Sequence record: NC_103192.1
Origin: a phage
Direction: 5' to 3' (one strand)
DNA length: 64,000 bases
The first letter of the stretch is position 1. Each line of letters opens with the position of its first letter. Of this stretch, positions 4,134 through 46,809 are shown piece by piece. A program made the position numbers and the translations under genes. A model generated the notes under the pieces. It saw nothing but the letters and a program-made list of their open reading frames with translations. It was not told the DNA's origin and searched no databases.

Positions 4134-5174
4134 ATGTCAAAACCTAGTTTTCCATTAGAGATTTGGGCAGAGGAGGATCAGGTTCTGCCTAACACCCACA
4201 GACAGAACAGGCTACGCCCGATTGATGATTTGTGGAGAAAAGGTTGGGATCTTGGTCAAAAGCCATCCTGTGAAGAACTTAACTATATTTTCAATATGCT
4301 CGGGACTTGGGCAAAATACATTGCTGACGAGCAGATCCCCGCTCAAGAAGGCCGTTATCTGGTACGTGATAATAACTTGAGTGATCTTTTGAACATCCCT
4401 GTTGCCCGTAGAAACCTTGGTATTATTACTAAGGAAGAGGCAGACGCCAGGTATGTGAAAGTTGCAGGTGATACAATGACAGGCCCATTGGGTTTGCAAC
4501 GTATCAACTTTAAAGCTGCCGATACAGATAAGGCTTGGATAGAGACAACTATTGGCCCAGATAAGACAACCCTTGACTTTGGGTTAAGTGATAATATTGG
4601 GGCGTTCGATGATGGTGGCACATCTACAGTAGATGCGTTCCGTTGGAGATTCCAGCCAACTCAGCCGGACATTAACCCAGAGTTCACTCTGATGTACCTG
4701 AACGCAATCACGGCTAATCGTGCGTTGTTGAAAGTGGTGGGCAATGTTGAAGTTGTTGATAACATGCGATGTAATAACCTCACCATTAGCAGCACAGCAA
4801 CATTCACCAACTGCAATGTAGCTAGTCAGTTGACGGCTGGGTCAGTATATGTCAATGGTGGTGCAAGTTGTGACAGTATGGTTGTAAGAAGCCAGCATTG
4901 TGTTGTCGGTAACAGAAATGTGGTGCGCTCTGTGAATGGAGTGACGGCTAACGGCAACGGAGATGTAACGATCACCATCCCGCAGACAGGTGTACAGGAT
5001 ATCAGAATCGGTGCAAGACTTGTTGACGGTGTTTCTGAATCTCCGGTTCGCAACGGTTATGTTGTCACAGGTTGGCATTTTGGTGATAAAAAAGAGATGC
5101 GTGGTTCAACCTACTGGGCAGGACCTTTACAAAAACTTGTAAATGGTCAATGGATCACTGTTAATTATGCGTAG
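4134..5174 (+). CDS. tail fiber protein (paralog A)
   Basis: 346 aa; N-terminus MSKPSFPLEIW..., GDTMTGPL collar-like motif, C-terminus QKLVNGQWITVNYA shared with ORF 6189-7232. Confidence 0.75.
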   Translation: MSKPSFPLEIWAEEDQVLPNTHRQNRLRPIDDLWRKGWDLGQKPSCEELNYIFNMLGTWAKYIADEQIPAQEGRYLVRDNNLSDLLNIPVARRNLGIITKEEADARYVKVAGDTMTGPLGLQRINFKAADTDKAWIETTIGPDKTTLDFGLSDNIGAFDDGGTSTVDAFRWRFQPTQPDINPEFTLMYLNAITANRALLKVVGNVEVVDNMRCNNLTISSTATFTNCNVASQLTAGSVYVNGGASCDSMVVRSQHCVVGNRNVVRSVNGVTANGNGDVTITIPQTGVQDIRIGARLVDGVSESPVRNGYVVTGWHFGDKKEMRGSTYWAGPLQKLVNGQWITVNYA

Positions 5175-28650: not shown

Positions 28651-29856
28651 ATGATTTTCATCTACGAACATTTCAAAACTCGTAAAGAAGCACGTGACCG
28701 CCGTGCAGAGCTTGAGAAGAAGGGTTTCACATGCGCTATTGAGAAAGGTAACACAACCTGGACACTGGCAGTGGGTGCCCCAGAGTTGTTCGATCCTGAC
28801 CGTGACAGCGTCTGCTACACCCGTGAGGATTTTGAAACCCGTGAAGAGGCCCGTTTATTTCGATATGGGCTGGAAGATAACGGTAAGTACGCCATGATCT
28901 TAGACTTAGGAGAAGGTTCCGTTAAACGTTGGGGCGTGGTATATCCGCTGTGTGTTGTTCACGGTGTAGGGTTCACTGGGGTAGCAATCAAGTCAGAAGA
29001 ACCTTTAGTAGAAGTAAAAGACCCGGTGCTGGAGGTGGTGAGCAGTGTGTCTCAGCAACAGACCCGAAGCATCGAGCCTTTGGTGGTTATTTGCGGAGAA
29101 CTCCTCCAGATCACCTGTAACGAAGGCATTTTTGAAATTCGCCGCAGTGAAAGTGAGGAAGTTTACCAGAAAGTTTTCGACCATATCTCTGTTCAGGAAT
29201 ATGATGAGGCAATTGGTGAAATCCTTGTCTGGCTGGAACGCAAGAATGAGTTCACCACACTTGCAGACAACCTGATCATGAAAGATGGCAAGCTCTACTA
29301 CTACGGTGTAGAGATGCGATCCACCATTGCAAAGAAAATTGAGAAAGATTATGCAGATGGAACACTGGATGACCGCTATGTGAAATTCCTCGTTCGCCTG
29401 CTACGCAATCCTTCTGCAAAATCTGTAAACATGCTCTACGATTTTATGCAGGCCAACGATATCCAGATTGCAGAAGATGGTCGAATCATTTGCTACAAAG
29501 GGGTTCAGTTTAACGGCAGCAAATGGGTGGATTGGCACAGTGGTAAAGTTCCACAATACCAGGGTGCTTTTGTATCCATGCCTCGTAACTTTGTAGAGGA
29601 TGATCCGGAAGCTGCGTGCTCCTATGGCTTACACTGCGCCAGCAAAGAGTATGCAAAGAGCTACGGCACTGTAATGATGGTTATGGTTGATCCTGCAGAT
29701 GTGGTTAGTGTGCCATACCAACACAATAGCGCTAAGTGCCGTGCATGCCGCTATGAGATTGTGGTAGCTCCGGAAGCACGCAAAGATGGAGACCCTATCG
29801 AATATGTAGTTGATCGTGACGGTAACACTATCGACATTCTTTACGAGGAGGCGTAA
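28651..29856 (+). CDS. rIIB: rIIB-like protein
   Basis: C-terminal half (YDFMQANDIQIAEDG...SYGLHCASKEYAKSYG...VDPADVVSVPYQHNSAKCRACRYEIVV) is collinear with the T4 rIIB C-terminal region as recalled. Confidence 0.75.
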   Translation: MIFIYEHFKTRKEARDRRAELEKKGFTCAIEKGNTTWTLAVGAPELFDPDRDSVCYTREDFETREEARLFRYGLEDNGKYAMILDLGEGSVKRWGVVYPLCVVHGVGFTGVAIKSEEPLVEVKDPVLEVVSSVSQQQTRSIEPLVVICGELLQITCNEGIFEIRRSESEEVYQKVFDHISVQEYDEAIGEILVWLERKNEFTTLADNLIMKDGKLYYYGVEMRSTIAKKIEKDYADGTLDDRYVKFLVRLLRNPSAKSVNMLYDFMQANDIQIAEDGRIICYKGVQFNGSKWVDWHSGKVPQYQGAFVSMPRNFVEDDPEAACSYGLHCASKEYAKSYGTVMMVMVDPADVVSVPYQHNSAKCRACRYEIVVAPEARKDGDPIEYVVDRDGNTIDILYEEA

Positions 29857-31226
29857 TGGAAAAAGGGCAGTATGATGTAGGCACAGATGCTGCCCTCGTT
29901 GCAATCATGAGTGGTGAGAATGTCTTCGTTTCAGGACCTGCAGGTTGTGGGAAGACGTATCTCATCAACATGATCCAGTCAATGTATGGAGACTCTTGCA
30001 TAACGGTTGCCCCGACAGGGGTAGCCGCTTTAAACGTTAATGGAGCAACAGCACACCGAACATTCGATCTTGCAGCAGGTGTGAGCATGGAGTCGGACTG
30101 GACCGCAATAAGGGCAAAAACAGCAAAGCCTTTGAAAAGCAAGGCATTTACCATCCTAATTATCGATGAAATCTCTATGATCCGTGCTGATAAGTTTATA
30201 GAGATGGATAGGAAACTCCGCTTCCTTCGAAAAAATGACAAACCTTTCGGAGGCATACAGGTCATATTGTTTGGCGATTTTTACCAGGCACCTCCTGTTG
30301 TCTCTTCTATGGAGAAGGAAGCCTACTTCAACTTCTACCATACGGACCTGTGTTGCTATACCGAATCTTGGAAAGAGCTTGACCTCCACAACATAGCCCT
30401 AGTAGATCAGTTCCGACAGGAGTCTATTCGATTTGCCACAATGCTCAACTGTGTTCGTGAGGGTCGTCGCATAAAAGAGGTTGTAGCAGAACTTAATGCT
30501 CGCTGTTACAAAGGCGGTGTACCAACAGACGCTCTCACAATTTGCGCTACCAACAAACAAGCGGAGGAAGTGAACAGAAGGTTCTATGATGCCATCAACG
30601 CCCCAGAGAAGGTATACACTGGTGAAATGAAAGGTAAGTTTCCCTCCACCCTGCCAGTTGAGCAGGAGATGAAGTTGAAAATTGGCATGAAGGTCATGAT
30701 AACCGCTAACGATGTTGACCCGACTCACAAAGTACCTTATTATGTTAACGGAACACGTGCCACAATTGTTAAATTTAAGAACAAGGCGGTGGTGGTAGAG
30801 CTTGAAGATGGAACACAGGTTGACATAGAGCAGAGGTTGTGGGAGAATAACGAGTATAAGCCATCTCAGAGATACAACATTGCAGAAAGGAAGATGGAGA
30901 AGTTTATAGAGAGGGTAGTGATTGGGTCATACAAGCAACTTCCTCTGAAATCTGGGTACGCCGTAACATCTCATAAAAGTCAAGGACTTACGCTAGATTG
31001 TTACAACCTAGACCTTGGAAAGAACGGGGCTTTCTCTCCTGGGATGACGTATGTTGCTTTGAGTCGAGTTAAGACAATACAAGGAATAAACTTGTTGCGT
31101 CCACTAAGAGAAGTTGACATTATTGTTGACCCGCGAGTCGTAGAGTTTTACAATACAACATTCCCTGACTTAGACAAAATTGTCAGGAAAGATTTTGAAA
31201 CCAGAACTGAAGAGGGGGACGTATGA
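29856..31226 (+). CDS. SF1B DNA helicase, Dda/RecD-like
   Basis: Walker A GPAGCGKT, Walker B IIDEISM, GDFYQAPPV, C-terminal TSHKSQGLTLD. Confidence 0.8.
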   Translation: MEKGQYDVGTDAALVAIMSGENVFVSGPAGCGKTYLINMIQSMYGDSCITVAPTGVAALNVNGATAHRTFDLAAGVSMESDWTAIRAKTAKPLKSKAFTILIIDEISMIRADKFIEMDRKLRFLRKNDKPFGGIQVILFGDFYQAPPVVSSMEKEAYFNFYHTDLCCYTESWKELDLHNIALVDQFRQESIRFATMLNCVREGRRIKEVVAELNARCYKGGVPTDALTICATNKQAEEVNRRFYDAINAPEKVYTGEMKGKFPSTLPVEQEMKLKIGMKVMITANDVDPTHKVPYYVNGTRATIVKFKNKAVVVELEDGTQVDIEQRLWENNEYKPSQRYNIAERKMEKFIERVVIGSYKQLPLKSGYAVTSHKSQGLTLDCYNLDLGKNGAFSPGMTYVALSRVKTIQGINLLRPLREVDIIVDPRVVEFYNTTFPDLDKIVRKDFETRTEEGDV

Positions 31227-31625: not shown

Positions 31626-32951
31626 ATGAGTAAAACCAAATTAGAACTTACCTGGATAGGTAAAAACGAGCGCAAAAAGTTAGAGCCGCACATTTTGTTA
31701 GAAGATTCTAGCAAGTCTTACCACAGCCAGAAAGTGACCGAAAACGATATTTTTGATAATAAACTGATTTTTGGAGATAACTTATTAGCATTGAAGGCGC
31801 TAGAGCAAGAGTATGCAGGCAAAGTGAAGTGTGTTTACATAGACCCACCATTCAATACTGGAAGGGCTTTTGAGCACTACGATGATAGCCTTGAGCATTC
31901 CATTTGGCTGGGCTTAATGAGGGATAGGTTAGAAATAATTCGTAATCTTCTAAGTGATGATGGGGTAATATTCGTTCACTTAGATGATTGCGAGATGGCG
32001 TATTTAAAAGTTTTGATGGACGAGATTTTTGGTCGTGCAAATCAGTTAAATACCATATCGATGACCACAAATTCCCCTTCGGGATTTAAGGCAACAGGAG
32101 CCACAGTTTTCTCCACAGCAAACTTTTTGCTAGTATATGCAAAAGATCGCACCCAGAAACCGCTTAACAAAATCTATATACCTAAAGGGTATGATACAGG
32201 ATATAACAAATACCTATTAAACCCGGATGACCATTATAAAAATTGGACGTGGTGCGGTATTGCCGATGCGTTTGCAAAGGCCAATGGCTATAAAGATGCA
32301 AAAGAAGCCAAGAAAAAACTGCCTGATACATTCGATGATGAATTAGCACAATTCGCAATTGATAATGCAGAACGTGTATTTCAATCTGTTGCAATTGGCG
32401 GTGGTGCTAAAATAAAGAGAAAAGAAACTATCGAGAAGTCAAAGAAAGACAGGGATAAGGTTTATGTACATCCAAATGAAGATGTTGAAGGATTTTATAT
32501 CGCAAATGGTAGGCAAATGGTCTTTTACTCCAACAGGCTTTTGGAAATTGACGGTGAGATGCAACCTGCGGAACTAATAACTGATGTTTGGACAGACATT
32601 AGTTGGAATGGGATAGCAAATGAAGGTGGCGTTAGTTTCAAAAATGGGAAAAAACCAGAAGCGCTTTTGAAGCGAATTTTCGAAATGTGTACGCGAGAAG
32701 GTGATTTGGTATTGGATTCATTCGGTGGTTCGGGAACTACTGCTGCTGTAGCTCACAAGATGAAAAGACGTTGGATCTCAATCGAGCTAGGTGATCATTG
32801 TCATACCCATATTATTCCGCGCTTGGAAAAAGTGATCGATGGTGAAGATCAAGGTGGTATTTCTAAGTCTGTAAACTGGCAAGGTGGTGGTGGCTTCCGT
32901 TATTACAAACTTGCCCCGACCTTAATTGCGAAAGATAAGTCTGACCAATAA
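31626..32951 (+). CDS. DNA N6-adenine (or N4-cytosine) methyltransferase, beta-class
   Basis: catalytic motif IV DPPF (VYIDPPFNTG) precedes AdoMet motif I DSFGGSGTTAAVA. Confidence 0.8.
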   Translation: MSKTKLELTWIGKNERKKLEPHILLEDSSKSYHSQKVTENDIFDNKLIFGDNLLALKALEQEYAGKVKCVYIDPPFNTGRAFEHYDDSLEHSIWLGLMRDRLEIIRNLLSDDGVIFVHLDDCEMAYLKVLMDEIFGRANQLNTISMTTNSPSGFKATGATVFSTANFLLVYAKDRTQKPLNKIYIPKGYDTGYNKYLLNPDDHYKNWTWCGIADAFAKANGYKDAKEAKKKLPDTFDDELAQFAIDNAERVFQSVAIGGGAKIKRKETIEKSKKDRDKVYVHPNEDVEGFYIANGRQMVFYSNRLLEIDGEMQPAELITDVWTDISWNGIANEGGVSFKNGKKPEALLKRIFEMCTREGDLVLDSFGGSGTTAAVAHKMKRRWISIELGDHCHTHIIPRLEKVIDGEDQGGISKSVNWQGGGGFRYYKLAPTLIAKDKSDQ

Positions 32952-34214: not shown

Positions 34215-34979
34215 TTGAAATTTATCTACAAAGAACACCACCACAAAGGTGTTGTGTGGAGTCTATTTGACGGGTCTGGTGGTGCAGTCATTGACTGGGC
34301 TAAAGCTGGGTATCTGTGCCTGTGCTTTAACGCAGAAGGTGCTGACCATGGTAGTTATGCAGAGGTGATAACCGATCATCCTAACATTCACTACGTTGAT
34401 TATTGGATTGACCCGTGGTTCCCTCAAGAAACTTTTTGCATGTACCCAGCTCCAGACTTTATTCTTGCATTTCCTCCGTGCACGCATTTAGCAGTATCAG
34501 GTGCTGCACATTTTAAGAAAAAGCTGGCTAAGGACCCTCTGATTCAAATTAATGCTGTAAAAGATGCTCGGGTTGCAGAAGAGTTGGGAGAGATTTACGA
34601 TTGCCCGTGGCATGTAGAGAACCCTGTAGGGGTTATGTCCACACTGTGGCGAAAACCTGATTACCGTTTTCATCCTTCTGATTATGGCGGGTATTTACCA
34701 GAAGATGATGTAAACCCGTGGTTTCCTGAATTTATAGCTCCACGTGATGCCTACCCAAAAATAACTTGCGGTTGGATAGGCAATGGATTTATAATCCCAG
34801 CCACAAAACCTGTCCCGCAAATAGTGGATGCGGTTAGTGGTTATTCTATGCAACACGCTAAGCTAGGTGGAAAGAGTGCAAGGACGAAGATGATTCGAAG
34901 CCTTACACCACGTGGCTGGGCAAGAGCTGTATTCTTAGCAAACGAGACTGTAGTAAGGAGCAGAATTAATGGGCAGTAA
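34215..34979 (+). CDS. DNA (cytosine-5)-methyltransferase-like protein
   Basis: motif I LFDGSGG, PC motif AFPPCTHLAVSG, ENV-like HVENPVG; TTG start 7 nt after AGGAGA, because the upstream in-frame GTG lies inside the terminator stem. Confidence 0.5.
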   Translation: MKFIYKEHHHKGVVWSLFDGSGGAVIDWAKAGYLCLCFNAEGADHGSYAEVITDHPNIHYVDYWIDPWFPQETFCMYPAPDFILAFPPCTHLAVSGAAHFKKKLAKDPLIQINAVKDARVAEELGEIYDCPWHVENPVGVMSTLWRKPDYRFHPSDYGGYLPEDDVNPWFPEFIAPRDAYPKITCGWIGNGFIIPATKPVPQIVDAVSGYSMQHAKLGGKSARTKMIRSLTPRGWARAVFLANETVVRSRINGQ

Positions 34980-37047
34980 ATTCATGGCATCTGCATATAA
35001 CCGCTATGGAGAGCCTAACCCAGTTGCAACAAGATACAAAAGCGGAGGCAGTATGAAACGAGACTATCGTGATGAAAAAGAGGTCGAAACTGTAGAAGCT
35101 GTTTTAGAAAATACTAAAATTGTCCCTGTTCCACAACAAAATATCGGACTGATGGCTGCACAATATTTTGGGGTGCGATCAGCATTGTCTCAAGAAGACG
35201 GGGTAACGGTCACTGCAACATATTTCCCATATTACGACCGCTACGGTAATCTATCCGGTTTCAAAAAGCGCGATTGGTCTAAGCCGAAAGAGCAGAAAGG
35301 GCACTGGTCTGTAGTAGGGATCGTGAAGGCCAGCTCCCAGATGTTCGGTCAAAAGCTGTGTGCATCCTCCAACAACCGTAAACAGATTAACGTTTGCGAG
35401 GGGGAGGGTGATGTTATTGCAGCATGGCAGGCTGCATATCAGATACAAGTAAAAGGGATTCTCACCAATGCTAAAGCCCCAGCGAAGGTGAAGCAGTGGG
35501 CTAAAGAAGTCCAGGATGGGATCGATGCAGTTATCAACGGCGGCGATCTGGCAGGAAAACCCTGCCTGCCTTTTGTTGGAATTAACTGCGGGTGTGCAAA
35601 CGCCGTAGACACTTTTGCGAACAATGAGAAATTTATCCGTAGCTACGGAACAGTGGTCCTTGCAATGGACAACGATGCAGCTAACGAGGTAGAGAAGCAA
35701 AAACACGTTATCAAAGGTGTTGAAGCCACACATAATATCGCAGCATTTTTGATGGCTGATAACGTTTACCACGTGGAATACCCAGGTGAGGTAAACGACC
35801 CTGATGGTGTAAAAGATATCCGTGACATGCTGAAGGCTAAAAAGCTGGAAGATATTGTCAACATGTTCCGTCACCCAGTCAAATATGTGCCTGATGCTGT
35901 ATCTGATTTAGAAGACTTCTCCATTGAATCTCTTCGTAAGAAGACTTCTAATGGCGTAGATATCAGTGCGGAGTTCCCTAAATTGCAGAAGATGCTGAAA
36001 GGACTCCACAAAGGCACCTTGATGATGCTGACAGGACCATCTGGTGGCGGTAAAACAACTGTAGCCAAGAAGCTGGAACACTGTATTGCAAGATACTTGA
36101 TGGATCCAACATGCCCTAAAGCTGATGATTATGAAGAGGATGATCGCCTGTGCCTGATTCACCTTGAAGAGGATCCAGAGGAAGCAATCAACTCTCTATA
36201 TGCTAACCAGTTAGGGTTTGATGTTAAAGAGTTTGTTGAAGACCCCAGTCAGTTCCTGACCGATCAGGAGCATGCTGAGATTCATCAATCTTGGGCCAAG
36301 GCCGGAAAAATCAAAGTGTTCAAACATTTCGGTTCTATCCCTGTAGATGAACTGATTACCAAGCTTAAACAAATGGTATGTCTGTATCATTGCCGTTACA
36401 TTGTGCTGGATCACCTGTCCATGGTGATTTCAGGGCTTAATGTTAAGGATGAGCGCAAAGAACTTGACATGGCTATGACTCAACTAGCCGCGTTCTGTAA
36501 GCAGTTTAATGTGTTTATCCTGGTGATTGCTCACCTGAAGCGCACAGAGATTGTACCTCCGAAGGATAAGGATGGAAATCCGTTACCTTTCTGGTACCCT
36601 GTACGAAAAGAGAACCTTCGCGGTAGTGCCGGATTGGAGCAACTTAGCTGGGTGGTTGTCGGGGTAGAGGCAGAGGAGATGGTGGATCGTTCCCGTGGAC
36701 GTGTCCGACTGGTAGGTCTTAAAAACCGCCCAGCAAAAACCTTAGGTATTGCAGACACTCTAGTTATGGATCCCCACACAGGCAAGTTCCATGATGCCAG
36801 CAACTGGTACTGGGACAAAGAAATGCAGATGTTTACAGACGGGGAAGGTGGGGAGGTTGTTTGGAGACCTCAGGCTATGTTTGAGGATCAGGAGCATGCA
36901 GTTGTAGAAACACCTGTGGGCAAGGTTGTGGCTGATAAGGTTATAACTCCTGCTGTTAACCCTGTTGACACACAGGAAGATCTTCAGTACGATGATCCAT
37001 CCTCTGACCCGGTCCCTGGTTTTGAGGATGATGAAACGCCTTTTTAA
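34969..37047 (+). CDS. bifunctional primase-helicase (Toprim + DnaB-like)
   Basis: Toprim-like CEGEGD, Walker A GPSGGGKTT, DnaB-type VLDHLSMV. Confidence 0.8.
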   Translation: MGSKFMASAYNRYGEPNPVATRYKSGGSMKRDYRDEKEVETVEAVLENTKIVPVPQQNIGLMAAQYFGVRSALSQEDGVTVTATYFPYYDRYGNLSGFKKRDWSKPKEQKGHWSVVGIVKASSQMFGQKLCASSNNRKQINVCEGEGDVIAAWQAAYQIQVKGILTNAKAPAKVKQWAKEVQDGIDAVINGGDLAGKPCLPFVGINCGCANAVDTFANNEKFIRSYGTVVLAMDNDAANEVEKQKHVIKGVEATHNIAAFLMADNVYHVEYPGEVNDPDGVKDIRDMLKAKKLEDIVNMFRHPVKYVPDAVSDLEDFSIESLRKKTSNGVDISAEFPKLQKMLKGLHKGTLMMLTGPSGGGKTTVAKKLEHCIARYLMDPTCPKADDYEEDDRLCLIHLEEDPEEAINSLYANQLGFDVKEFVEDPSQFLTDQEHAEIHQSWAKAGKIKVFKHFGSIPVDELITKLKQMVCLYHCRYIVLDHLSMVISGLNVKDERKELDMAMTQLAAFCKQFNVFILVIAHLKRTEIVPPKDKDGNPLPFWYPVRKENLRGSAGLEQLSWVVVGVEAEEMVDRSRGRVRLVGLKNRPAKTLGIADTLVMDPHTGKFHDASNWYWDKEMQMFTDGEGGEVVWRPQAMFEDQEHAVVETPVGKVVADKVITPAVNPVDTQEDLQYDDPSSDPVPGFEDDETPF

Positions 37048-37105: not shown

Positions 37106-40100
37106 ATGAGCATGTATAGCTTCGATTTTGAGGCCTCCGGGCTTTTGGAAGATCCAGATCTTTATTATCACTGCGGCCTGTTTAAAGAGCTGAATAAGAA
37201 CCGTTTTATGCTGTTCCTCCCTCTAAATGACCGCACACACTACTCCGAGGAGGATATAGAGAAGGCTAAGAACTTTATTCTGGCAAAGAAAACTCTTTAT
37301 AAAGATTTTGAAGTTCGCATAGCAGATTTTTCAGAGTTGGAAGGTTGGCTTACAGGCAATTCTGACTGGTCACCAACAGCTTTGAACTGCCATAACTGCT
37401 ACAGTTATGACTTTATGCTGATGGAGAGATTATCCGGTATTCATTTTGATATGTTCCGTGATCCTAAATGCATGGGTACTATCAACGATCACCAGGTTAA
37501 CCTGTTTGATACGTTGGCGATGAGCCGAATCTTGTGGCCTGATCGCCCTTTACCAAAAGGTTGCCCGGACGCTGTATTCAACCCGGTTACTAAGAAAATG
37601 CAGCCTGTTGGTCCTCACGGCCTTATGGCATGGGGCTACGCTCTTGGTAACCAGAAAGTTCAAATTGATGACTGGCGCGATCTTCCGCTGTGGAAGTATG
37701 TGGATCGTGTATTTGAGGACGTTATCATCCAGGAGCTGCTCTGGAAAGAGCTAGTAGCGGAATCAAAAGGTGTATTCTACGGCAAATCTGACATGCAGAA
37801 CTTCATGTATGACCCTGCCAAAGAGAAGCCTAAAGGATTCAAGAAGATTACCTGGAAGAATGCATTACGCCGAGGCATGCTGCAGCACTTCCTGATGGAG
37901 CTGCAGGCCCGTCAGGGTGTGTATTTCGACATAGATGGGGCTATTGCTTTACGTGACCGTTGCGATGCGTGGATGAAAGAGATCGCTGATCGTGTTGAAC
38001 CTCAACTCCCTTTAAAAGAGTTGTCAATATCTCAGCGGCCCAAGTTCCCTGAAAAGCCGTTTAACCAAGATGGGACAATCTCCAATAATGGTTGGAAATG
38101 GTTAAAAGATAAGCTTGGCTACCCTGTGGACATGAGCGCTTTAGATTTCAAAGCCCCACCTAAGCGAGCATTTACCTCCACAGGAGATGTCAGTAAGATG
38201 GGGATAAAATGGTGTGAAGAGATGGGCTGCAAAGACCCCGATAAGATGGCTGCTTTCTTGAGAGGCTATATTAAGGGCACTTCCACACCACAACCTTTAC
38301 CTAAAGAGCTGATGGATCAGGCAATAAGTGATCTACAGCAGAAGCGAATGCCTGACTGCAAGATACCTATGAAAATCAGCAATCAGGACGACATTAAGCG
38401 ATACCTGATCAGTGCTGGTTGGCTTCCGACAATGTGGAGAACTAAGGATGTAACTAAAGACAGCAAGAAGAAAGCTCTACCTGATGCAGATGTTGATGCA
38501 CGAGTATATGCATATATGGACGAGCTTTTAGAGTCAGAGTATTGTGACCTAATTATCAACTTCTGGAACAAAACTGATGCTAAGTTTCAGACAACAGTGC
38601 ACAAGTTCCGAAGCTTTCCTAACTCCGAAAGGATTAAAAAGGAAGTATTCGGGAAAATACGCAGAAAAGCTAGGGCACTTATTACTTCCCCGCAACTGAA
38701 AGATACGTTTGGACACCTATGCCCGAATCTTGAAAGATTGAACGGAGAGATGGCTAAAGATATCGTCTTGTGGTTATCATTGCGAAACCGCAGATCGGTA
38801 CTTGATCCAATCAAGGAGGATAAGGTTGATACTGGTCTTCTTAATCACCCACGTTTGAAGATTGACCATAAGCTTCCTGCTAAAAGCTCTGGATTAACAA
38901 ACACTTCCCGACAGAAACACAGTATTTGTGCAAACATGCCTAAACCATCTCCTAAAGTGGTTATGGGTAAAGAGATGCGTAGTCTGTGGGGTGTTCCTCC
39001 AGGATACTTTGAGATCGGTATTGACGGGTCTAACTTGGAGCAGCTTATCGGGGCTTGGGGTGCCTTTGAGTTCGACAACGGCCTGTATTACGATGTTGTA
39101 AGTAACGGCGATGCACACTGTTATTCAGGAGATACACAAATTCTCACGGAGAAAGGGTGGGTGAGGTTTGAAGATCTTGATCCGGGAACACAAGTGTTCC
39201 AGTACGATCACAACACCTCGTCGATGAACCTTGTTACTCCATTAAATTACGTTAAGCGTAGTTATTGTGGGGATATGTATCATTTCCACAACAGCGGTGT
39301 GGATTTTATGGTTACAGATCAACACAGGATGCTGACCGTGGATCACAGAAGCAATAAATTGTTTGAAGATTTGGCAAAAGACCTGAAAGCAGGTAAAGGG
39401 TCTAATTCAGGAAGAAGGTTTATCCATGCGGCAGAGTTTTATGGGAATACAACCTTATCTCCTGCCCAGGTTAATTTGCTTATTGCTATTCACGATGATG
39501 GGCACTTGCATACAAATAAGGACGGCAGCATCGTGTGCAGGATTCAGGTCGGGAAGGGCAGAAAAGTTGCAACGCTTTTAGATACTTTTTCTGCTCTAAG
39601 CCTTAGTTATGTAGAGCAGAGCGGGAAAACCACAAAAGGGGGCTTACTGGCGAGAAGGTTCCAATTCCACGTTCCGTCCTGGGTATTTGAGTTTTTGGAC
39701 AGCAATAAGGATTTCACCTACAACCTGATGGACCTTGATAAAGAATCTAAAAACCTGTTTATAGCTTCTTTATCTAACTGGGACGGGTGGGTATCTTCCG
39801 AAGGTGGAAAAGTTGCCTACTACTCTCAGGCCGAGTGCAGGAAGAAATCTGTAGAGGTTGTGTCTGCGCTGGCTACTCAGTGTGGTTTACGGAATAATAC
39901 GGTAGCGATTCACAAAAAAGGTCGTTCCGTACAGCACAGAATCACGATTGGTAGCAAACAGAGAGCAGGGTTGCTGACACTATCTAAAGAGTCTGTCGAG
40001 GTGAGCGGTTCTTTGGTTTATTGCGTTACCGTCCCTTCTGGAGCAATCATTGTGAGAAGGAATGGTAAAGTGGCAGTGTGCGGTAACTGTAATAACGCCA

Positions 40101-41180
40101 AAGCTTACTCTTCTGTAGCAGGCAAGGAGATTTCCCGTAACGATGGTAAGCCTGTCACGTACGGTGTTATGTACGGGGCACAAAAAGATAAAGTTGCAGA
40201 TATGCTGGACATCTCTCCAGAGTTGGGACAAAGGGTAATCGATGCGCTTTGGGATGCCAACCCCGGTCTTAAGGGGCGTAAAGAGGATCTGGAGAAATTC
40301 TGGGAAGCAACTGGTAAGAAGTTTATCTACTCTTTTGATGGTCATGCCATCTGGACCCGATCTAAACACTCTTTACTTAATGCATACCAACAAAATGGTG
40401 GTGCATCGTTGTGTGACTTAGTTGGGATACTCATGCACCACCAAATGGTGAAGCGTGGGTGGTACGATGAAGGTGTTCGCCGTATTATCTATTACCATAA
40501 ATAACATTGTGGCTTCGTGCAGTGATGCACGTCGAAAACCTCTTTAATTGACGGGAAGGCTAAGTTGACTTTTACACCTAAACATGGTAAAAGCTCGATA
40601 TGCTAATCCGCAGCGAAGCATCCGAGAGGATGAACGTTCAGAGACTATCGAAAGCATAGCTCCAGCATAGTTTGGTGTGAAGAAGCGAGTAGAGTAGGCC
40701 AGCAAGTGCGGTCGAAATGAGAGGTGCCTTGGTAACAAGGCAGTGAGATAGTCCGATCCATACGGGAAACTGTATGGCTATGCACGTAATGGTGCGGGGT
40801 AGCTTAACGACCTACCTGAACTATTGGATGAGTACCAACTTCAAGTACCTGACACACCGAAGTATAAGACTGTGTACACCTTCGACACAATCGAAGAACT
40901 GGAAGCATTTAAGGCAGAGCAGGAGGCCAAACTTCATGTGTTCGACGGTCATAAGTACAAAAAGGCACGCAAGGATGAGGACGGAAACGAAGTGGTTGAC
41001 AGAGACGGAAACACGGTGTACGATCCTATCCTGAACGATGACGGAAAGCTTGAACTTATCTGGAGCCCTGTGGGTGAAATGGTGGTGCATTGCTTCTGGC
41101 AAGCTTCTAAAATGATGGGCGTCCCATTCCAGATCACAGGTGAATACTTGTGTGGGGCTAATTGGGGTAGTTGTCACTAA
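37106..41180 (+). CDS. family A DNA polymerase, exons 37106-40498 and 40827-41180, containing an intein
   Basis: N-terminal exo motif FDFEASGL; motif A IDGSNLEQL; KPVTYGVMYGAQ (motif B region); HDE motif split across the intron (YYH | DEYQL); C-terminus GANWGSCH. Confidence 0.85.
39119..40087 (+). mobile_element. intein (323 aa) with LAGLIDADG-like homing endonuclease domain
   Basis: begins CYSGDTQILTEKGW (block A), block B TDQH, LAGLIDADG-like LLIAIHDDGHL and LFIASLSNWDGW, ends ...VCGN followed by Cys +1; extein flanks GDAH/CNNAK fit the family A pol O-helix region. Confidence 0.7.
40499..40826 (+). ncRNA. group I self-splicing intron (ORF-less)
   Basis: core elements P aattgacgggaagg (40546-40559), Q aatccgcagc (40605-40614), R gttcagagacta (40636-40647), S agatagtcc (40746-40754); 5' exon ends in U, intron ends in G; restores the HDE motif in frame. 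Confidence 0.8.
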
Positions 41181-43367: not shown

Positions 43368-43659
43368 AAACATCAACCCAACAGGATTCTTGAAAGTATA
43401 CCGTGAACTGCTATATACTACAGAGGACAGTGTTCTAGAGTACCCAGAATACCTTTTGCTGTATAAGTATCTACAGGAAGCTGGTGAAAATCTACCAGTT
43501 AGTGCAGAAGGCGGTCCAAACTGGGTCTACAGCGCATGGAGAAAGGTTGACATTCTCCCAGATCCAGGAAAAGATATGGTAGTTTGGCAGCTTATCAACA
43601 ACATCGGGATTCCAATCTTCGACGAAGCTGTTAAAATCTATTTTGAACTTGACGATTAA
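43357..43659 (+). CDS. hypothetical protein
   Basis: ATG after AGGAGA. Confidence 0.5.
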   Translation: MKTENINPTGFLKVYRELLYTTEDSVLEYPEYLLLYKYLQEAGENLPVSAEGGPNWVYSAWRKVDILPDPGKDMVVWQLINNIGIPIFDEAVKIYFELDD

Positions 43660-43676
43660 TATCAGGAGACCTTAAG

Positions 43677-43922
43677 ATGACTGAAGTAGTTGCTCGCGCA
43701 GGACAGAAAGTACGTTGTGTTGAAGTGGGTTTTGGTGGCAAAGGGTGTCAAAACTTGACTCAAGGTAAGGAATACACTGTTGTTTCTGGCGGTGGTGACA
43801 AAAGTATTGTGTTCGATGACCATATTCTGGATGTTGAAAACTTTGAAATAATTGATGATGATGGTGATCCGATCACCTGCCTGCTGGACGGGAATTGGGG
43901 AACTTTTGAAGTGATTGGCTAA
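43677..43922 (+). CDS. hypothetical protein
   Basis: 81-aa Gly-rich ORF. Confidence 0.5.
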   Translation: MTEVVARAGQKVRCVEVGFGGKGCQNLTQGKEYTVVSGGGDKSIVFDDHILDVENFEIIDDDGDPITCLLDGNWGTFEVIG

Positions 43923-44005
43923 CAAATACCTATTGTAATTTGCAGAAGGGGATGCTAAAATAGTGTCTCCTTCTATGTTGTTCAAATAAAATCGGAGATT
44001 CCATA

Positions 44006-44371
44006 ATGGAACAAATGAACGATCAAACGTCGGTTGCGATGAACGAGCAAGAACAACCTCAAGAATTTTTCTTAGGGTTAAGTAAAGATCAAGTGTCTCT
44101 TCTGCTAGTGCTTTCTTCTTTCATGGGAAGACTTCAGGAGCTTACACAACAGCCAGAGGCTGAACAATTATTCCAGGCGCTGCGTGAAGAAGAAAAATAT
44201 CGTCGTTTGGACTATGCCTTAGGTTGGGTAGCTCAACAACGAGATATGCTGATGGCCCTCTCTGGGACCACAAGTTTTGCAATGGGCCTGTTGGCTCAAG
44301 TTCAGGACAAATTAATTCAAGCAGGGTTTGCACACACAGCAAACACCAACGAAGAACAAGGAGACAAATAA
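44006..44371 (+). CDS. hypothetical protein
   Basis: 121-aa ORF, TAATG overlap with the next gene. Confidence 0.5.
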   Translation: MEQMNDQTSVAMNEQEQPQEFFLGLSKDQVSLLLVLSSFMGRLQELTQQPEAEQLFQALREEEKYRRLDYALGWVAQQRDMLMALSGTTSFAMGLLAQVQDKLIQAGFAHTANTNEEQGDK

Positions 44372-45639
44372 TGAGTGTTATTCAACAATTTGCCAACCCG
44401 ATGAATCCGCGTGAGACTGTTTTACTGGCTCACGGCATGATTAAACGTGTTAGCATCAAGCCTATCAAAGGTGCTGATCCTACAACAGGTATTAAAACCA
44501 CTGTGTGGCAAGGTAAGAAAATTGAATCCAGCCACACCATTTCTTTACTGATTTCTGAACTGGATTCCTCTGATAACCTGCTTCAAGGTGGTGAAGAAGT
44601 CTGGATCAGCATGGGTGATAAGCTGCTTAAGCCTGGTCATCAAGACTCCGTCTCTGTTAAAATTGATGACAAGTGGGAAACAGTAACGCCAGGATGGATC
44701 GTAAATATCCCTTTAAAGGCAAATGAGCATAACGGTAAGACCTACTACAAAGGCTCACTGGCTAAAATGGTTAAGTTGGGGGCAGGAGAGGCTCCAGCAG
44801 CGACTCAGCAGCAAAAACAGCAACAAGGTGCACAATCACAAGGTCAGAAGCAGAAACCTCAGCAGAATGCCAATCAGGACGTTTTACGCATCTATGGCGA
44901 TGTGACTCAGATTGTTGGCAACGTGGTTACTGTTAATGACCACAAGATTGGCGAAGGTGCCATGGTTGTCACTGATGAGCAGCTTAAAGATCTGGTGGTA
45001 GGTGGTCGTGTTGCAGCCATTGTTGACAAAGACACCGGAAACATTATCAGTGGTTTCAAAGCCTATCCACCTAAGGCAGAGAACGGCACTCAAGGCTCTG
45101 GTGGCAAGCGTAAATCCTCTTACGACCCTATTGGTGTAGAGACGGGGCACAGCATTAATGCGTTGCAGATCATCTTGGATCGCGGGTTTAAGGTAGACAA
45201 TCCTTTAGACGTAGCTAAAACACTACACGTGGTCACCATTGAGCTTAAGAAAGAGTACGCTCAAGCCACCAACCGAACCGAAGATGAAGTGGGTGCCAGT
45301 GTCGGTAATGCGGTGTTGAACGCTTGTCGCCGTATTGACAAGAAAACGAAAGTTGATGATTTTGCAGCGGCAATTACTGCAGAAGCAAAAGATGTCTTGA
45401 CTAATCTGGCTGAGCCGTTGTACGATTGGATCAAGAACGGTGCTGGAGCCACTGACCATCAAGAGCCTCAAGCTGCCAAACAGGAAGCCACCCCACAGCA
45501 AAACACTGTAGACGCTCCTCCTGTAGATGATGCGGAAGACGACCCGATGGATCAGAATCCGGCACAGTATGAGTTCGATGACATACCTTTCGCTCCGGTG
45601 GGTTTGCAATATGGCAAAAGTAGAATCCACGCATTGTAA
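44371..45639 (+). CDS. putative single-stranded DNA-binding protein (acidic DDIPF tail)
   Basis: ATG after AAGGAGA; Q-rich linker, acidic C-terminal region ...[22 protein letters not shown] resembling bacterial SSB tips; assignment tentative. Confidence 0.5.
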
Positions 45640-46234
45640 GAGGTGCATCAAGTGTGGAGAGGTGAAAAACCTCTCCGAGTTCTACAAACATCCAAAGATG
45701 TCTGACGGTCATCTTAATAAGTGCAAAGAGTGTTGCAAGAAGGCCAGCAGGGAGGCTGACCAATTTTCCCACGACTCTTCAGAAAAAGGTGTGATCCGCG
45801 TGTTGTACAAGACTCAAAAGTGCAACAGTAAGAAGAGAGGTCACCCACCTCCGACTTACACCAAAAAAGAGTTTAAGGAGTGGCTATACCTAAACGGTTA
45901 CAAAGAGTTGTATGACCAATGGGTAGCCAGCGGATACGACAAAAGGAAAAAGCCTTCTTGTGACAGGATAGATGATTTCAAAGGGTACTCTTTTGATAAT
46001 ATCCGTTTAACGACTTGGGGAGAAAATAAAGACAAGCAGACAGAGGATATTCTGTTACATAGAAGCACCAGCGGTAGACGGTGTAAAAATGTAAGGAGGC
46101 TGGACATGAATGGCAACGTTCTTAAAGAATGGGTATCCCACAATTCTTGTAGAAGAGAAACCGGAATATGTGTTGATTACTACATTCATGAAAAAATTCC
46201 AGCCCCAGATGGATACCTCTACGAATACTTTTAG
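45611..46234 (+). CDS. HNH homing endonuclease
   Basis: zinc-binding cysteines [10 protein letters not shown]...KCKECC and HNH_3-type [18 protein letters not shown]; start overlaps the 3' end of the SSB-like gene. Confidence 0.7.
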
Positions 46235-46249
46235 CACCTAACTAACATA

Positions 46250-46277
46250 GCCCTGCCCGAAAGGGTGGGGCATTTTT
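46250..46277 (+). terminator. intrinsic terminator (repeated hairpin, copy 2)
   Basis: ccctgcccgaaagggtgggg followed by catttttg. Confidence 0.6.
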
Positions 46278-46296
46278 GTATAAGGAGATCTGAAAA

Positions 46297-46713
46297 ATGA
46301 CATTAGAAGATATCATTGTTAAACCTGAGAACTATGACCAATACAACCTGTCAACTCAATCTGTAGACCTCGGATGCGCCACAGTCAGTGCATGGCTGGT
46401 TAACGGAAAAGAGCTTGACGAGTGCCTGGAAGCTCACATGTCTATTAACAAGTTTCTGGATGAAAATACTCACTGGCTTGAGGGTGCAGGAGTATATGCT
46501 TCATGGTTGGAAAGTATGGGATTCGACTACCAATCTGAAGAAGGGTGGTGGAGCTATTTAGCTATCTGCCCAGAGACGCTGCAATGCTTCATGAAATATT
46601 CTGAAGATTTGGAGTACCGGGCGGTGGTTGATAGTGCTATTGCCCGTTATAGCCGTAAACCTTTTTCCCACGACATTAAAACTGTGGAAGAATTTGTTGA
46701 AGTTTTCTGTTGA
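46297..46713 (+). CDS. hypothetical protein
   Basis: 138-aa ORF after AAGGAGA. Confidence 0.55.
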   Translation: MTLEDIIVKPENYDQYNLSTQSVDLGCATVSAWLVNGKELDECLEAHMSINKFLDENTHWLEGAGVYASWLESMGFDYQSEEGWWSYLAICPETLQCFMKYSEDLEYRAVVDSAIARYSRKPFSHDIKTVEEFVEVFC

Positions 46714-46809
46714 CACAGGTTGGAAGGTGTGTAATTATAACCTTGTAGAGCTGGAGGACGTGATGAACGAAGAAAACTGGGATGTATAACTAACAGGAGG
46801 CCACTGCCC

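What the first reader, a model, noticed from the sequence alone, without database searches (positions are those of the whole stretch)
44371..46234. HNH endonuclease gene overlaps and extends the C-terminus of an SSB-like protein
The 422-aa protein at 44371-45639 has a glutamine-rich linker and an acidic tail containing DDIPF, the hallmark C-terminal tip of bacterial SSBs. Here that motif is followed by 15 extra residues ([15 protein letters not shown]) encoded by sequence overlapping the start of a free-standing HNH homing endonuclease (45611-46234). This suggests the endonuclease inserted at the 3' end of the SSB gene and buried the interaction tip, which in SSBs normally must be the free C-terminus. 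The SSB assignment itself is tentative.
Basis: inference. Interest (0 to 1): 0.5.

Follow-up and report, generated by a model that had tools for sequence, protein, structure and literature searches.

The report
Capped phage SSB tail beside homing endonuclease
An rV5-like phage encodes a single-strand-DNA-binding-like replication protein whose normally terminal 'DDIPF' docking tip is covered by a conserved 15-residue cap, and the gene is followed by a mobile endonuclease gene of a clade that repeatedly sits at the 3' end of such genes; the cap is a widespread, apparently undescribed module and was not made by the endonuclease.

Summary
ORF 44371-45639 (422 aa) ends ...EFDDIPF + [15 protein letters not shown], and an endonuclease ORF (45611-46234) overlaps its last 29 nt.

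The window is an rV5-like Vequintavirus. The 422-aa protein is the ortholog (98% identity) of Bas52_0087, described in a 2026 preprint as an SSB-like trigger of the DRT10 defence. My model agrees with theirs: an OB fold closest to bacterial SSBs, a second beta-barrel, a four-helix domain and a disordered acidic tail.

The "HNH" is a PacI-like beta-beta-alpha-metal nuclease with a Cys4 ribbon, and no Pfam HNH model matches it. It is mobile: 31 of about 116 close relatives carry this version, 20 carry a variant, and the rest carry none. The flanking sequences do not track its presence.

In 8 of 10 contexts that I did not select by the tail, relatives of this endonuclease lie just 3' of genes ending in an SSB-tip-like motif. 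In 5 of those 8 the tip is damaged or extended.

The same 15-residue extension occurs without any endonuclease in PVP-SE1, BIS47 and phi92-like phages. It also occurs on canonical SSBs and on primase-helicases. It is under purifying selection (pN/pS 0.18) and is found in about 227 phage records.

Verdict: interpretation partly supported; new variant of a known kind; interest 0.55.

The parts
44371..45639 (+). Gene for the 422-aa SSB-like replication protein (rV5 gp209 / Bas52_0087 ortholog, phrog_4477)
   Evidence: ORF. phrog_4477 match at E 2e-170, with the profile ending at residue 407. 98% identity to Bas52_0087, with D252 and Y351 conserved. AF2 model.
44371..44787 (+). N-terminal OB-fold domain (residues 1-139)
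44788..44877 (+). Gln-rich disordered linker (residues 140-169)
   Evidence: 13 Q in 30 residues. pLDDT below 50.
44878..45078 (+). Second small beta-barrel (residues 170-236), absent from the short phi92-like forms
   Evidence: AF2 strands 171-232. The alignment shows this block deleted in P0056-P0064. The preprint calls it OB-fold-2.
45118..45444 (+). Four-helix domain (residues 250-358) holding D252 and Y351, the DRT10 escape positions in Bas52_0087
   Evidence: AF2 pLDDT above 90 with helices 253-355. Invariant G255, G259, H260 and N263. Escape mutants are reported in the preprint.
45445..45591 (+). Disordered acidic tail ending in the SSB C-terminal tip motif DDIPF (tip at 45577-45591)
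   Evidence: 13 D+E against 1 K+R. pLDDT below 40. P406 and F407 are invariant in the family. Motif scan.
45592..45636 (+). 15-residue cap [15 protein letters not shown] (consensus AP[IV]GLQY[GA]xxx[IL][HY]xx) that makes the tip internal
   Evidence: Sequence. The same module is seen in orthologs and in unrelated proteins. pN/pS is 0.18 for its first 8 codons.
45597..45602 (+). GGTGGG, the likely ribosome-binding site of the endonuclease gene, encoded inside cap codons P-V-G
   Evidence: Read directly from the sequence. It lies 8 nt before ATG 45611. Its function is inferred.
45611..46234 (+). Free-standing homing-endonuclease-like gene (207 aa; rV5 gp208), a PacI-like beta-beta-alpha-Me nuclease
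45644..45733 (+). N-terminal Cys4 zinc ribbon (C12, C15, C38, C41) shared with endonucleases that have a different nuclease domain
   Evidence: The four Cys are invariant. The same ribbon is found in the ABPH49, KE23, ESh4 and nieznany endonucleases.
45953..46057 (+). Beta-beta-alpha-metal core with invariant D118, R119, Y126 and N139 (Arg where the catalytic His would be, as in PacI)
   Evidence: AF2 hairpin 115-119/131-135 plus helix 136-149. Invariant columns. Alignment to PacI DRxDxxxGYSxxNxRL..N. PacI chemistry from PMC4081073.
46088..46231 (+). C-terminal NUMOD-like DNA-binding region
46250..46281 (+). Intrinsic terminator closing the operon. In endonuclease-free relatives the same terminator directly follows the SSB-like gene
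   Evidence: Terminator scan. Alignment with Murica and HeinrichReichert.
34969..37047 (+). DnaB-like primase-helicase ending ...FEDDETPF*, a second SSB-tip-like end in the same replication module. Orthologs in Mydovirus and Seunavirus carry the cap
   Evidence: for the window gene. VLCpiM5b ends ..DDDTPFAPIGLQYAKHAIYVI*. KE23 ends ..DDDTPFAPIGLQYANHAIYVL* and is followed by an endonuclease.

Best explanation
The locus is a three-gene operon of an rV5-like phage: a 121-aa gene, an SSB-like gene and an endonuclease gene, closed by one terminator.

Shown:

1. The 422-aa product is an SSB-like protein encoded close to the replication genes. It has an OB fold, a second beta-barrel, a helical domain and a long disordered acidic tail carrying the bacterial-type SSB tip DDIPF.
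2. In this allele the tip is not terminal. It is followed by a 15-residue cap.
3. The cap is a conserved, portable module under purifying selection.
4. The module ends proteins of at least four unrelated families: this family, canonical SSBs, other OB-fold SSBs and primase-helicases.
5. The module toggles between present and absent, with the alternative state ending exactly at ...IPF, in nearly every sub-lineage.
6. The downstream gene encodes a PacI-like beta-beta-alpha-metal nuclease with a Cys4 ribbon. It is a free-standing mobile endonuclease.
7. Its clade is specialised for the 3' end of genes that encode the SSB tip.

Inferred:

1. The nuclease recognises DNA at or next to the tip-coding sequence. 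By double-strand-break repair it copies itself, together with neighbouring sequence, into endonuclease-free genomes. In Vequintavirus the unit copied or lost is cap plus endonuclease, with its left edge at the Phe codon.
2. The endonuclease is co-transcribed with the SSB-like gene and translated from an ATG and a Shine-Dalgarno-like site that lie inside the cap codons.
3. The cap blocks canonical docking of the tip, which needs the free Phe carboxylate, into host SSB-interacting proteins such as ExoI and the chi subunit. It replaces that docking with a different interaction surface that the SSB and the primase-helicase share.
4. The cap was not generated by the insertion. It is an older functional module that this endonuclease clade sits behind and helps move around.
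For: SSB-like protein:
- AF2 architecture.
- phrog_4477 match.
- 98% identity to Bas52_0087, predicted SSB-like and genetically shown to be the DRT10 trigger.
- No other canonical SSB in the window by tblastn.
- Neighbouring primase-helicase and other replication genes.

The cap is a conserved module:
- Family-wide two-state C-termini with no intermediates.
- Same module on the epsilon34 SSB, a Vibrio OB-fold protein and the VLCpiM5b helicase.
- Also on the ESh4 OB-fold protein, the KE23 helicase and the nieznany ortholog.
- About 227 phage records, 125 plasmid records and many prophage SSB fragments.
- pN/pS 0.18, against 0.09 for the DDDIPF core, with synonymous sites saturated.
- Present without any endonuclease or remnant in PVP-SE1, BIS47, L017, epsilon34, Vibrio 511E55-1 and VLCpiM5b.

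Endonuclease:
- PacI is the top sequence hit and the top structure hit.
- Invariant Cys4, D118, R119, Y126 and N139.
- PacI uses Asp and Asn as metal ligands and Tyr as general base (PMC4081073).

Mobility:
- 31 records carry version 1, 20 carry version 2, and roughly 62-65 of 116 carry none.
- No fixed flank differences between classes, and class-discordant flank distances.
- An endonuclease scar in L010.

Specialisation on the tip:
- 8 of 10 contexts found through the endonuclease alone lie 3' of a gene with an SSB-tip-like acidic tail.
- The endonuclease start is embedded in the cap codons in four unrelated phages.

Blocking of the tip:
- One extra Gly after F177 of E. coli SSB abolishes detectable chi binding and impairs growth (PMC3045619).
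Against: 1. No cleavage data exist, so the target site is inferred only from gene position.
2. Two N4-like homologs lie next to RNA polymerase genes, so not every member of the family follows the rule.
3. Within Vequintavirus and the 75%-identity group the cap never occurs without the endonuclease, apart from the L010 scar. This fits a cassette that brought the cap at least as well as it fits an older cap.
5. ssDNA binding by this protein has never been measured.
6. The cap's partner is unknown. The DDIPF core remains conserved under the cap, which could mean the cap is removed or that the tip is read internally.
Confidence: 0.6

Rival explanations
1. The endonuclease gene inserted at the stop codon of an SSB gene. 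The 15 extra residues are an accidental read-through into cassette sequence that buries the tip and is neutral or harmful to the protein.
For: In Vequintavirus and in the 75%-identity group the extension and the endonuclease form one indel starting right after the Phe codon. Relatives of the endonuclease are associated with seemingly arbitrary changes of the tip. Examples are IPF+NRG, IPHSS, IPF+28 aa, DFDDK* and DFDDDNL*.
Against: The window's extension is not arbitrary. The same AP[IV]GLQY[GA].. peptide occurs in orthologs and in unrelated proteins without an endonuclease. It has saturated synonymous sites but few replacements. Only two C-terminal states are ever seen. Only 9 of the 15 codons overlap the endonuclease ORF.
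Confidence: 0.1
2. Cargo model. The cap is part of the mobile cassette. It originated once and was carried by the Cys4-ribbon endonucleases into many different tip-encoding genes, by recombination at the conserved DDDIPF-coding sequence. It then stayed behind after the endonuclease decayed, because it keeps the invaded protein functional.
For: The cap is attached directly after PF in four unrelated protein families. The endonuclease start codon lies in the cap codons (TAT GGN) in the window, ESh4 and nieznany, and in TAT GCA in KE23. DNA similarity of 73% spans the cap and the endonuclease 5' end between the window and ABPH49, whose SSB-like proteins are only 29% identical. L010 shows loss of the endonuclease with the cap retained.
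Against: VLCpiM5b and KE23 share the helicase cap, and the endonuclease indel there starts after the cap's stop codon. No endonuclease remnants lie downstream of the other endonuclease-free caps. Most of the roughly 227 cap-bearing phages show no adjacent endonuclease annotation.
Confidence: 0.25
3. The protein is not an SSB. It is a phage factor that merely mimics the SSB tail to hijack or titrate host SSB-interacting proteins, and the cap tunes that mimicry.
For: There is no Pfam SSB match. The protein has an unusual extra helical domain. The preprint proposes interference with host ExoI. Expression of the protein alone does not trigger DRT10.
Against: The best structural neighbours of the N-terminal domain are true SSBs, PriB and RPA. 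The gene lies near the replication genes, and no other SSB candidate was found in the window. Related short forms are annotated as SSB in phi92-like phages.
Confidence: 0.15

Closest known systems
Bas52_0087 of BASEL phage RudolfGeigy (bioRxiv 10.64898/2026.04.29.721553)
   Same: It is the ortholog, 98% identical over the first 400 residues. The predicted architecture is the same: two OB-like domains, a four-helix bundle and a disordered tail with the tip motif. D252 and Y351 are conserved.
   Different: Bas52_0087 ends at ...FDDDIPF and has no endonuclease downstream. The window's allele has one Asp fewer, the 15-residue cap and the endonuclease gene. The preprint passages I read do not mention capped alleles.
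Bacterial SSB (E. coli SSB, PF00436) and its C-terminal tip
   Same: An OB fold with bacterial SSBs as the best structural matches, a disordered linker, and an acidic tail with D-D-I-P-F.
   Different: No sequence-level family match. The protein has an extra beta-barrel and a helical domain. The tip is internal, and in E. coli SSB even one added residue abolishes chi binding (PMC3045619).
T7 gp2.5 and gp4 acidic C-terminal tails (established knowledge, not tested here)
   Same: Both the SSB-like protein and the primase-helicase of one phage end in an acidic stretch with a terminal Phe. In sister genera both carry the same cap. This suggests a shared docking partner.
   Different: There is no sequence relationship to T7 proteins, and the partner is unknown. 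The cap has no T7 counterpart.
Restriction endonuclease PacI (PDB 3LDY/3M7K)
   Same: It is the best sequence hit and the best structure hit. Both have a Cys4 site, the motif DRxD...GYS..N.RL....N, and Arg in place of the HNH general-base His.
Free-standing phage homing endonucleases such as I-HmuI-type HNH enzymes and T4 SegG next to gene 32 (from memory, not tested)
   Same: A polymorphic endonuclease gene beside a conserved replication gene. The flanks are shuffled relative to its presence. There is a structural match to I-HmuI.
   Different: The nuclease core is a different variant. The clade is tied to the tip-coding 3' end of SSB-type genes across unrelated phages, and it is associated with alternative protein C-termini.

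Membership tests
Bacterial-type SSB (PF00436) | Sequence match to the SSB family model | tested here: not met
   No Pfam family matched at E up to 1. tblastn with E. coli and epsilon34 SSB matches only the tail region.
Bacterial-type SSB (PF00436) | OB-fold ssDNA-binding domain | tested here: met
Bacterial-type SSB (PF00436) | Disordered linker plus acidic tail ending in D-D-D-I-P-F as the free C-terminus | tested here: not met
   The linker, the acidic tail and DDIPF are present. However, 15 residues follow the Phe in this allele. Orthologs such as Murica and Bas52 do end at IPF.
Bacterial-type SSB (PF00436) | Binds ssDNA | not testable with these tools
   No biochemical data were found for this family. 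The preprint offers prediction only.
phrog_4477 / Bas52_0087 family (DRT10 trigger) | Full-length sequence homology including the escape positions D252 and Y351 | tested here: met
   phrog_4477 at E 2e-170. 98% identity with D252 and Y351 conserved.
phrog_4477 / Bas52_0087 family (DRT10 trigger) | Triggers DRT10 during infection | not testable with these tools
   Shown only for the uncapped Bas52 allele.
HNH / beta-beta-alpha-metal nucleases | Beta-hairpin plus helix metal finger | tested here: met
HNH / beta-beta-alpha-metal nucleases | Catalytic His (first H of H-N-H) after the metal-binding Asp | tested here: not met
   The position is an invariant Arg (D118-R119). No Pfam HNH model matches.
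PacI-like HNH variant | Asp and Asn metal ligands with Tyr as general base, plus a Cys4 zinc site | tested here: met
   D118, Y126, N139 and four Cys are invariant and align with PacI DRsD..GYS..N. The chemistry is taken from PMC4081073. Activity was not tested.
Free-standing homing endonuclease gene | Presence/absence polymorphism at one locus among close relatives, incongruent with the flanks | tested here: met
   31 records with version 1, 20 with version 2, and about 62-65 with none out of 116. There are no fixed flank differences. One class-1 / class-3 pair differs by 0.006 in the left flank, less than class-1 phages differ among themselves.
Free-standing homing endonuclease gene | Cleaves the endonuclease-free allele and is inherited above 50% in crosses | not testable with these tools
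   This needs enzyme assays and co-infection crosses.
T7-type shared replisome docking tails (gp2.5 / gp4) | SSB and helicase-primase share an acidic tail with a terminal aromatic residue | tested here: met
   The window helicase ends FEDDETPF*. The SSB-like orthologs end DDDIPF*. Both proteins carry the cap in Mydovirus and Seunavirus.
T7-type shared replisome docking tails (gp2.5 / gp4) | The tails bind the phage DNA polymerase | not tested
   No complex prediction or binding data were available.

The most novel reading that the evidence does not exclude
A clade of Cys4-ribbon homing endonucleases uses the DNA encoding the SSB C-terminal tip as its homing site. In doing so it drives a widespread on/off polymorphism of a functional 15-residue cap on phage SSBs and primase-helicases. 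The capped and uncapped states give different access to host SSB-interacting proteins such as ExoI, and therefore different visibility to defences that sense phage SSB-like proteins, such as DRT10 and retron Eco8. A selfish nuclease would then be toggling a defence-relevant protein terminus.
Probability: 0.25. Interest if true: 0.75.

Novelty: new variant of a known kind. Interest (0 to 1): 0.55.

Why it matters
The SSB C-terminal tip is the hub through which bacterial replication, repair and recombination proteins are recruited, and it is thought to work only as a free C-terminus.

Hundreds of phage, prophage and plasmid SSB-type proteins carry a conserved 15-residue peptide after that tip. 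Close relatives switch between the capped and uncapped states. This points to an unrecognised layer of control over which proteins a mobile-element SSB recruits.

The uncapped ortholog of this protein is the genetically identified trigger of the DRT10 defence, which host exonuclease I modulates. Natural capped and uncapped alleles in the BASEL collection therefore offer a ready-made test of whether the tip matters for triggering.

The endonuclease clade's preference for the 3' ends of tip-encoding genes is also a clear, testable case of a homing endonuclease targeting a short, ultra-conserved coding motif shared by unrelated genes.

Tried and rejected
1. Pfam on both proteins returned nothing useful. 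An NCBIfam scan failed because of a coordinate error and I did not repeat it.
3. A profile of the tails searched against the 5.8-billion-protein set returned only short fragments (77 aa or less). It therefore could not give a family census. The tblastn searches of phages and plasmids did that job instead.
4. I tested whether DDSIPF versus DDDIPF marks linkage to endonuclease version 2. This is rejected: both variants occur without any endonuclease in the 75%-identity group.
5. I tested whether the type of Cys4 ribbon predicts cap presence. This is rejected: the window-type ribbon also occurs behind uncapped tips.
6. I looked for endonuclease remnants downstream of endonuclease-free caps. None were found except in L010.
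7. Literature searches for the cap sequence strings gave zero papers.
8. I considered the cap as a beta-clamp-binding motif, a ClpX-type degron or a protease site. This was from memory only and had no supporting test, so I did not pursue it.
9. The DRT10 preprint's supplements held no per-phage plating data that could separate capped from uncapped BASEL phages.
It was rerun with alignment A6.
Full report
**What is in the sequence.** The ORF list and the raw bases confirm the observation.
- An ORF runs from ATG 44371 to TAA 45637-45639 and encodes 422 aa.
- It has a Gln-rich stretch at residues 140-169, with 13 Q in 30 residues.
- It has an acidic C-terminal region at residues 359-407, with 13 D+E against 1 K+R.
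- The motif DDIPF is at residues 403-407 (45577-45591), followed by [15 protein letters not shown].
- A second ORF in another frame starts at ATG 45611, eight bases after a GGTGGG that is encoded by cap codons. It ends at 46234, so the two genes overlap by 29 nt.
- A strong terminator follows at 46250-46271 and another precedes the upstream 121-aa gene. The three genes therefore form one transcription unit.

**Origin.** The region is 94-96% identical to about 116 rV5-like phages of genus Vequintavirus. In phage rV5 itself the two genes are gp209 (hypothetical) and gp208 (endonuclease), with the same overlap.

**The 422-aa protein.**
- Pfam finds nothing. PHROGs places it in phrog_4477, of unknown function, at E 2e-170. 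The profile ends exactly at residue 407, the Phe of DDIPF.
- An AlphaFold2 model built on 37 homologs gives five regions: a confident all-beta domain (1-139), a disordered linker, a second small beta-barrel (170-236), a very confident four-helix domain (250-358) and a disordered tail (359-422).
- No other canonical SSB is detectable in the window.
- A DnaB-like primase-helicase (34969-37047) and other DNA-metabolism genes lie upstream.
- An April 2026 preprint (10.64898/2026.04.29.721553) identifies Bas52_0087 of BASEL phage RudolfGeigy as the phage factor required to trigger the DRT10 reverse-transcriptase defence. It describes the protein as SSB-like, with two OB folds, a four-helix bundle and a disordered tail ending FDDDIPF.
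- The window's protein is 98% identical to Bas52_0087 over 400 residues and keeps both escape positions, D252 and Y351.
- The tentative SSB assignment is therefore supported at the level of fold, context and literature. ssDNA binding has not been measured.

**The endonuclease.**
- No Pfam HNH model matches it or its homologs. PHROGs assigns phrog_1035, "endonuclease VII", at 3e-41.
- The best match among solved structures by sequence is the restriction enzyme PacI (E 0.026). The alignment covers DRxDxxxGYSxxNxRL....N.
- In an alignment of 34 homologs four Cys (C12, C15, C38, C41) and D118, R119, Y126 and N139 are invariant.
- The AlphaFold2 model (pLDDT 90.7) has a hairpin and helix at 115-149.
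- PacI is an HNH-family enzyme in which Asp and Asn hold the metal and a Tyr replaces the usual His as general base (PMC4081073). This explains the Arg at the "His" position here.
- Some homologs match the I-HmuI NUMOD-like domain at the C-terminus.
- "HNH" is therefore right at superfamily level. The enzyme is a PacI-like variant, and its activity is inferred.

**Mobility within the genus.** Close relatives fall into three classes.
- Class 1 has the window's arrangement, cap plus endonuclease version 1. It comprises 31 records.
- Class 2 has a version-2 endonuclease with a different N-terminus, starting 8 nt after a protein that ends DDSIPF*. It comprises 20 records.
- Class 3 has no endonuclease and a protein ending DDDIPF*, followed directly by the same terminator. 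By subtraction (116 − 31 − 20, less a few partial records) this is about 62-65 records.
- In class 3 the Phe codon, the stop and the next roughly 20 nt are homologous to the last codon, the stop and the downstream bases of the endonuclease gene. The indel is therefore exactly "cap + endonuclease", with its left edge at the Phe codon.
- The same holds in a metagenomic group that is 75% identical.
- Across 12 genomes there is no fixed flank difference between class 1 and class 3. Flank distances cut across classes: DrSchubert (class 1) against Murica (class 3) is 0.006 on the left, and MaxBurger (class 1) against slur16 (class 2) is 0.005 on the right.
- That pattern indicates repeated gain and loss by recombination.
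- A relative that is 83% identical (L010) keeps the cap but retains only about 25 nt of the 5' end and about 40 nt of the 3' end of the endonuclease gene. It is a scar.

**Why the extension was not made by the insertion.**
- Distant orthologs in Salmonella phage PVP-SE1 and Klebsiella phage BIS47 end DDDIPFAPIGLQYGRNFIHCI* and DDDIPFAPIGLPYGRNFIHCI*. A terminator and opposite-strand tail genes follow, with no endonuclease.
- Among 64 homolog clusters every protein ends either exactly at ...[DES][IV]PF or with PF + AP[IV]GLQY[GA]xxx[IL][HY]xx. Both states occur in nearly every sub-lineage, and there are no intermediates.
- In the phi92-like group both a capped and an uncapped allele lack an endonuclease.
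- The same peptive module ends several unrelated proteins:
  - the canonical SSB of phage epsilon34 (...[21 protein letters not shown]);
  - a Vibrio phage OB-fold protein;
  - the primase-helicase of Mydovirus VLCpiM5b (...DDDTPFAPIGLQYAKHAIYVI);
  - the OB-fold protein, probably an SSB, encoded beside the recombinase gene of Hanrivervirus ESh4;
  - the Seunavirus KE23 primase-helicase.
- About 227 phage records and 125 plasmid records carry it. Many are annotated as ssb. Numerous prophage SSB fragments in Enterobacterales carry it as well.
- Across ten examples synonymous sites are saturated, but pN/pS is 0.18 for APIGLQYG. This is close to the 0.09 of the DDDIPF core. Selection therefore acts on the peptide.
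- No endonuclease remnants lie downstream of the endonuclease-free caps I checked.
- For the primase-helicase, VLCpiM5b (capped, no endonuclease) and KE23 (capped, with endonuclease) share the flank at 88% identity. The indel there begins right after the cap's stop codon.

- Endonuclease genes sharing the N-terminal Cys4 ribbon ([30 protein letters not shown]) start inside the cap codons in four other settings: ABPH49, KE23 (behind the helicase), ESh4 and Phapecoctavirus nieznany. These endonucleases have a canonical HNH core and not the PacI-like one.
- I then sampled homologs found only through the endonuclease. In 8 of 10 contexts the gene just upstream has an SSB-tip-like acidic C-terminus:

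| Context | Upstream C-terminus | State of tip |
|---|---|---|
| Vibrio 1.085.O | ...DTEIPF* | intact |
| Deseoctovirus S192 SSB | ...DFDDSIPF* | intact |
| Vibrio 1.167.O | ...DDTQIPF* | intact |
| Metagenomic PF00436 SSB (L032) | ...SEIPF+NRG* | extended |
| Metagenomic PF00436 SSB (L034) | ...DDEIPHSS* | altered |
| Helicase (L031) | ...DEDIPF+28 aa | extended |
| Vibrio 1.187.O (upstream but one) | ...PPMDFDDK* | tip lost |
| PH357 | ...PPIDFDDDNL* | tip lost |

- The two exceptions are N4-like phages, whose homologs (33-35% identical) sit beside RNA polymerase genes.
- This clade is therefore tied to the 3' end of tip-encoding genes and often leaves an altered tip.

**Most likely mechanism.**

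*Shown:*
- an SSB-like protein with a capped tip;
- a conserved, portable cap under purifying selection;
- a PacI-like mobile endonuclease whose clade associates with tip-encoding 3' ends;
- in this genus, cap plus endonuclease inherited or lost as one block.

*Inferred:*
- The endonuclease recognises DNA at or next to the tip-coding sequence, which is very conserved and shared by unrelated genes. It spreads by break repair with co-conversion.
- The cap prevents canonical tip docking. In E. coli SSB a single added Gly abolishes chi binding and impairs growth (PMC3045619).
- The cap offers another interaction surface. Because the primase-helicase carries it too in sister genera, it probably docks both proteins to a common partner. 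This is reminiscent of the T7 gp2.5 and gp4 tails (from memory, untested).
- Whether the cap is cargo of the cassette or the older target behind which the endonuclease inserts is unresolved. The helicase case and the clean endonuclease-free caps favour "older module". The strict linkage in Vequintavirus favours "cargo". Both may hold.

**Comparison with known systems and novelty.**
- The gene pair has been in GenBank since rV5 was sequenced.
- The SSB-like nature of the uncapped ortholog, and its role as the DRT10 trigger, were reported in 2026.
- Free-standing homing endonucleases next to replication genes are well known.
- I could not find three things in the searchable literature: the cap module itself, its two-state polymorphism, and the specialisation of a Cys4-ribbon endonuclease clade on tip-encoding 3' ends.
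- I rate this a new variant of a known kind, with moderate interest (0.55).
- The most novel reading not excluded is that a selfish endonuclease toggles a defence-relevant protein terminus. I give it a probability of about 0.25.

Noticed in passing
window 34969-37047 (tip at 37030-37044): The DnaB-like primase-helicase ends ...FEDDETPF*, an SSB-tip-like end. Its orthologs in Mydovirus and Seunavirus end ...DDDTPFAPIGLQY..., carrying the same cap as the SSB-like protein. In KE23 an endonuclease gene starts inside that cap.
   Followed up: partly
window 46763-46789; also L014 3276-3305, L008 about 3555-3584, L011 about 4321-4350: A conserved mini-ORF, M(F)NEENWDV*, has its own Shine-Dalgarno-like site. 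It recurs downstream of this locus in several lineages. In the 75%-identity group it lies between the SSB-like or endonuclease gene and a terminator. It could be a small peptide or a leader ORF.
   Followed up: no
window 37106-40504: An 1132-aa ORF lies directly after the primase-helicase and has no Pfam match at E 0.001. By position it should be the DNA polymerase, since relatives annotate a DNA polymerase there.
   Followed up: no
database records MG0656xx: About 16 records labelled 'Campylobacter phage' with host C. jejuni are 95% identical to E. coli rV5-like phages across this locus. Others match phi92-like phages. The host labels look doubtful.
   Followed up: no
window 43600-46800 against 11 Vequintavirus genomes: The window is 3.7-6.8% divergent from every database relative in this region. 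Most of those relatives differ from each other by only 1-3%. The window therefore represents a somewhat separate lineage.
   Followed up: no
L002 2507-3085 against window 45611-45760: Endonuclease versions 1 and 2 are nearly identical over most of their length. They have unrelated first roughly 35 residues, and version 2 lacks the [12 protein letters not shown] loop of the Cys4 ribbon. This is a mosaic that suggests swapping of the N-terminal module.
   Followed up: partly
window 29856-31226 and 31626-32951: A PIF1-like helicase and an N6/N4 DNA methylase lie upstream in the same replication module.
   Followed up: no
L036 (Vibrio phage 1.187.O) and L037 (Pseudoalteromonas phage PH357): The upstream proteins end ...EPPMDFDDK* and ...EPPIDFDDDNL*. 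These are SSB-type acidic tails that have lost the IPF tip. Each has an endonuclease homolog 400-600 nt downstream, so they may be examples of a tip destroyed by insertion.
   Followed up: partly
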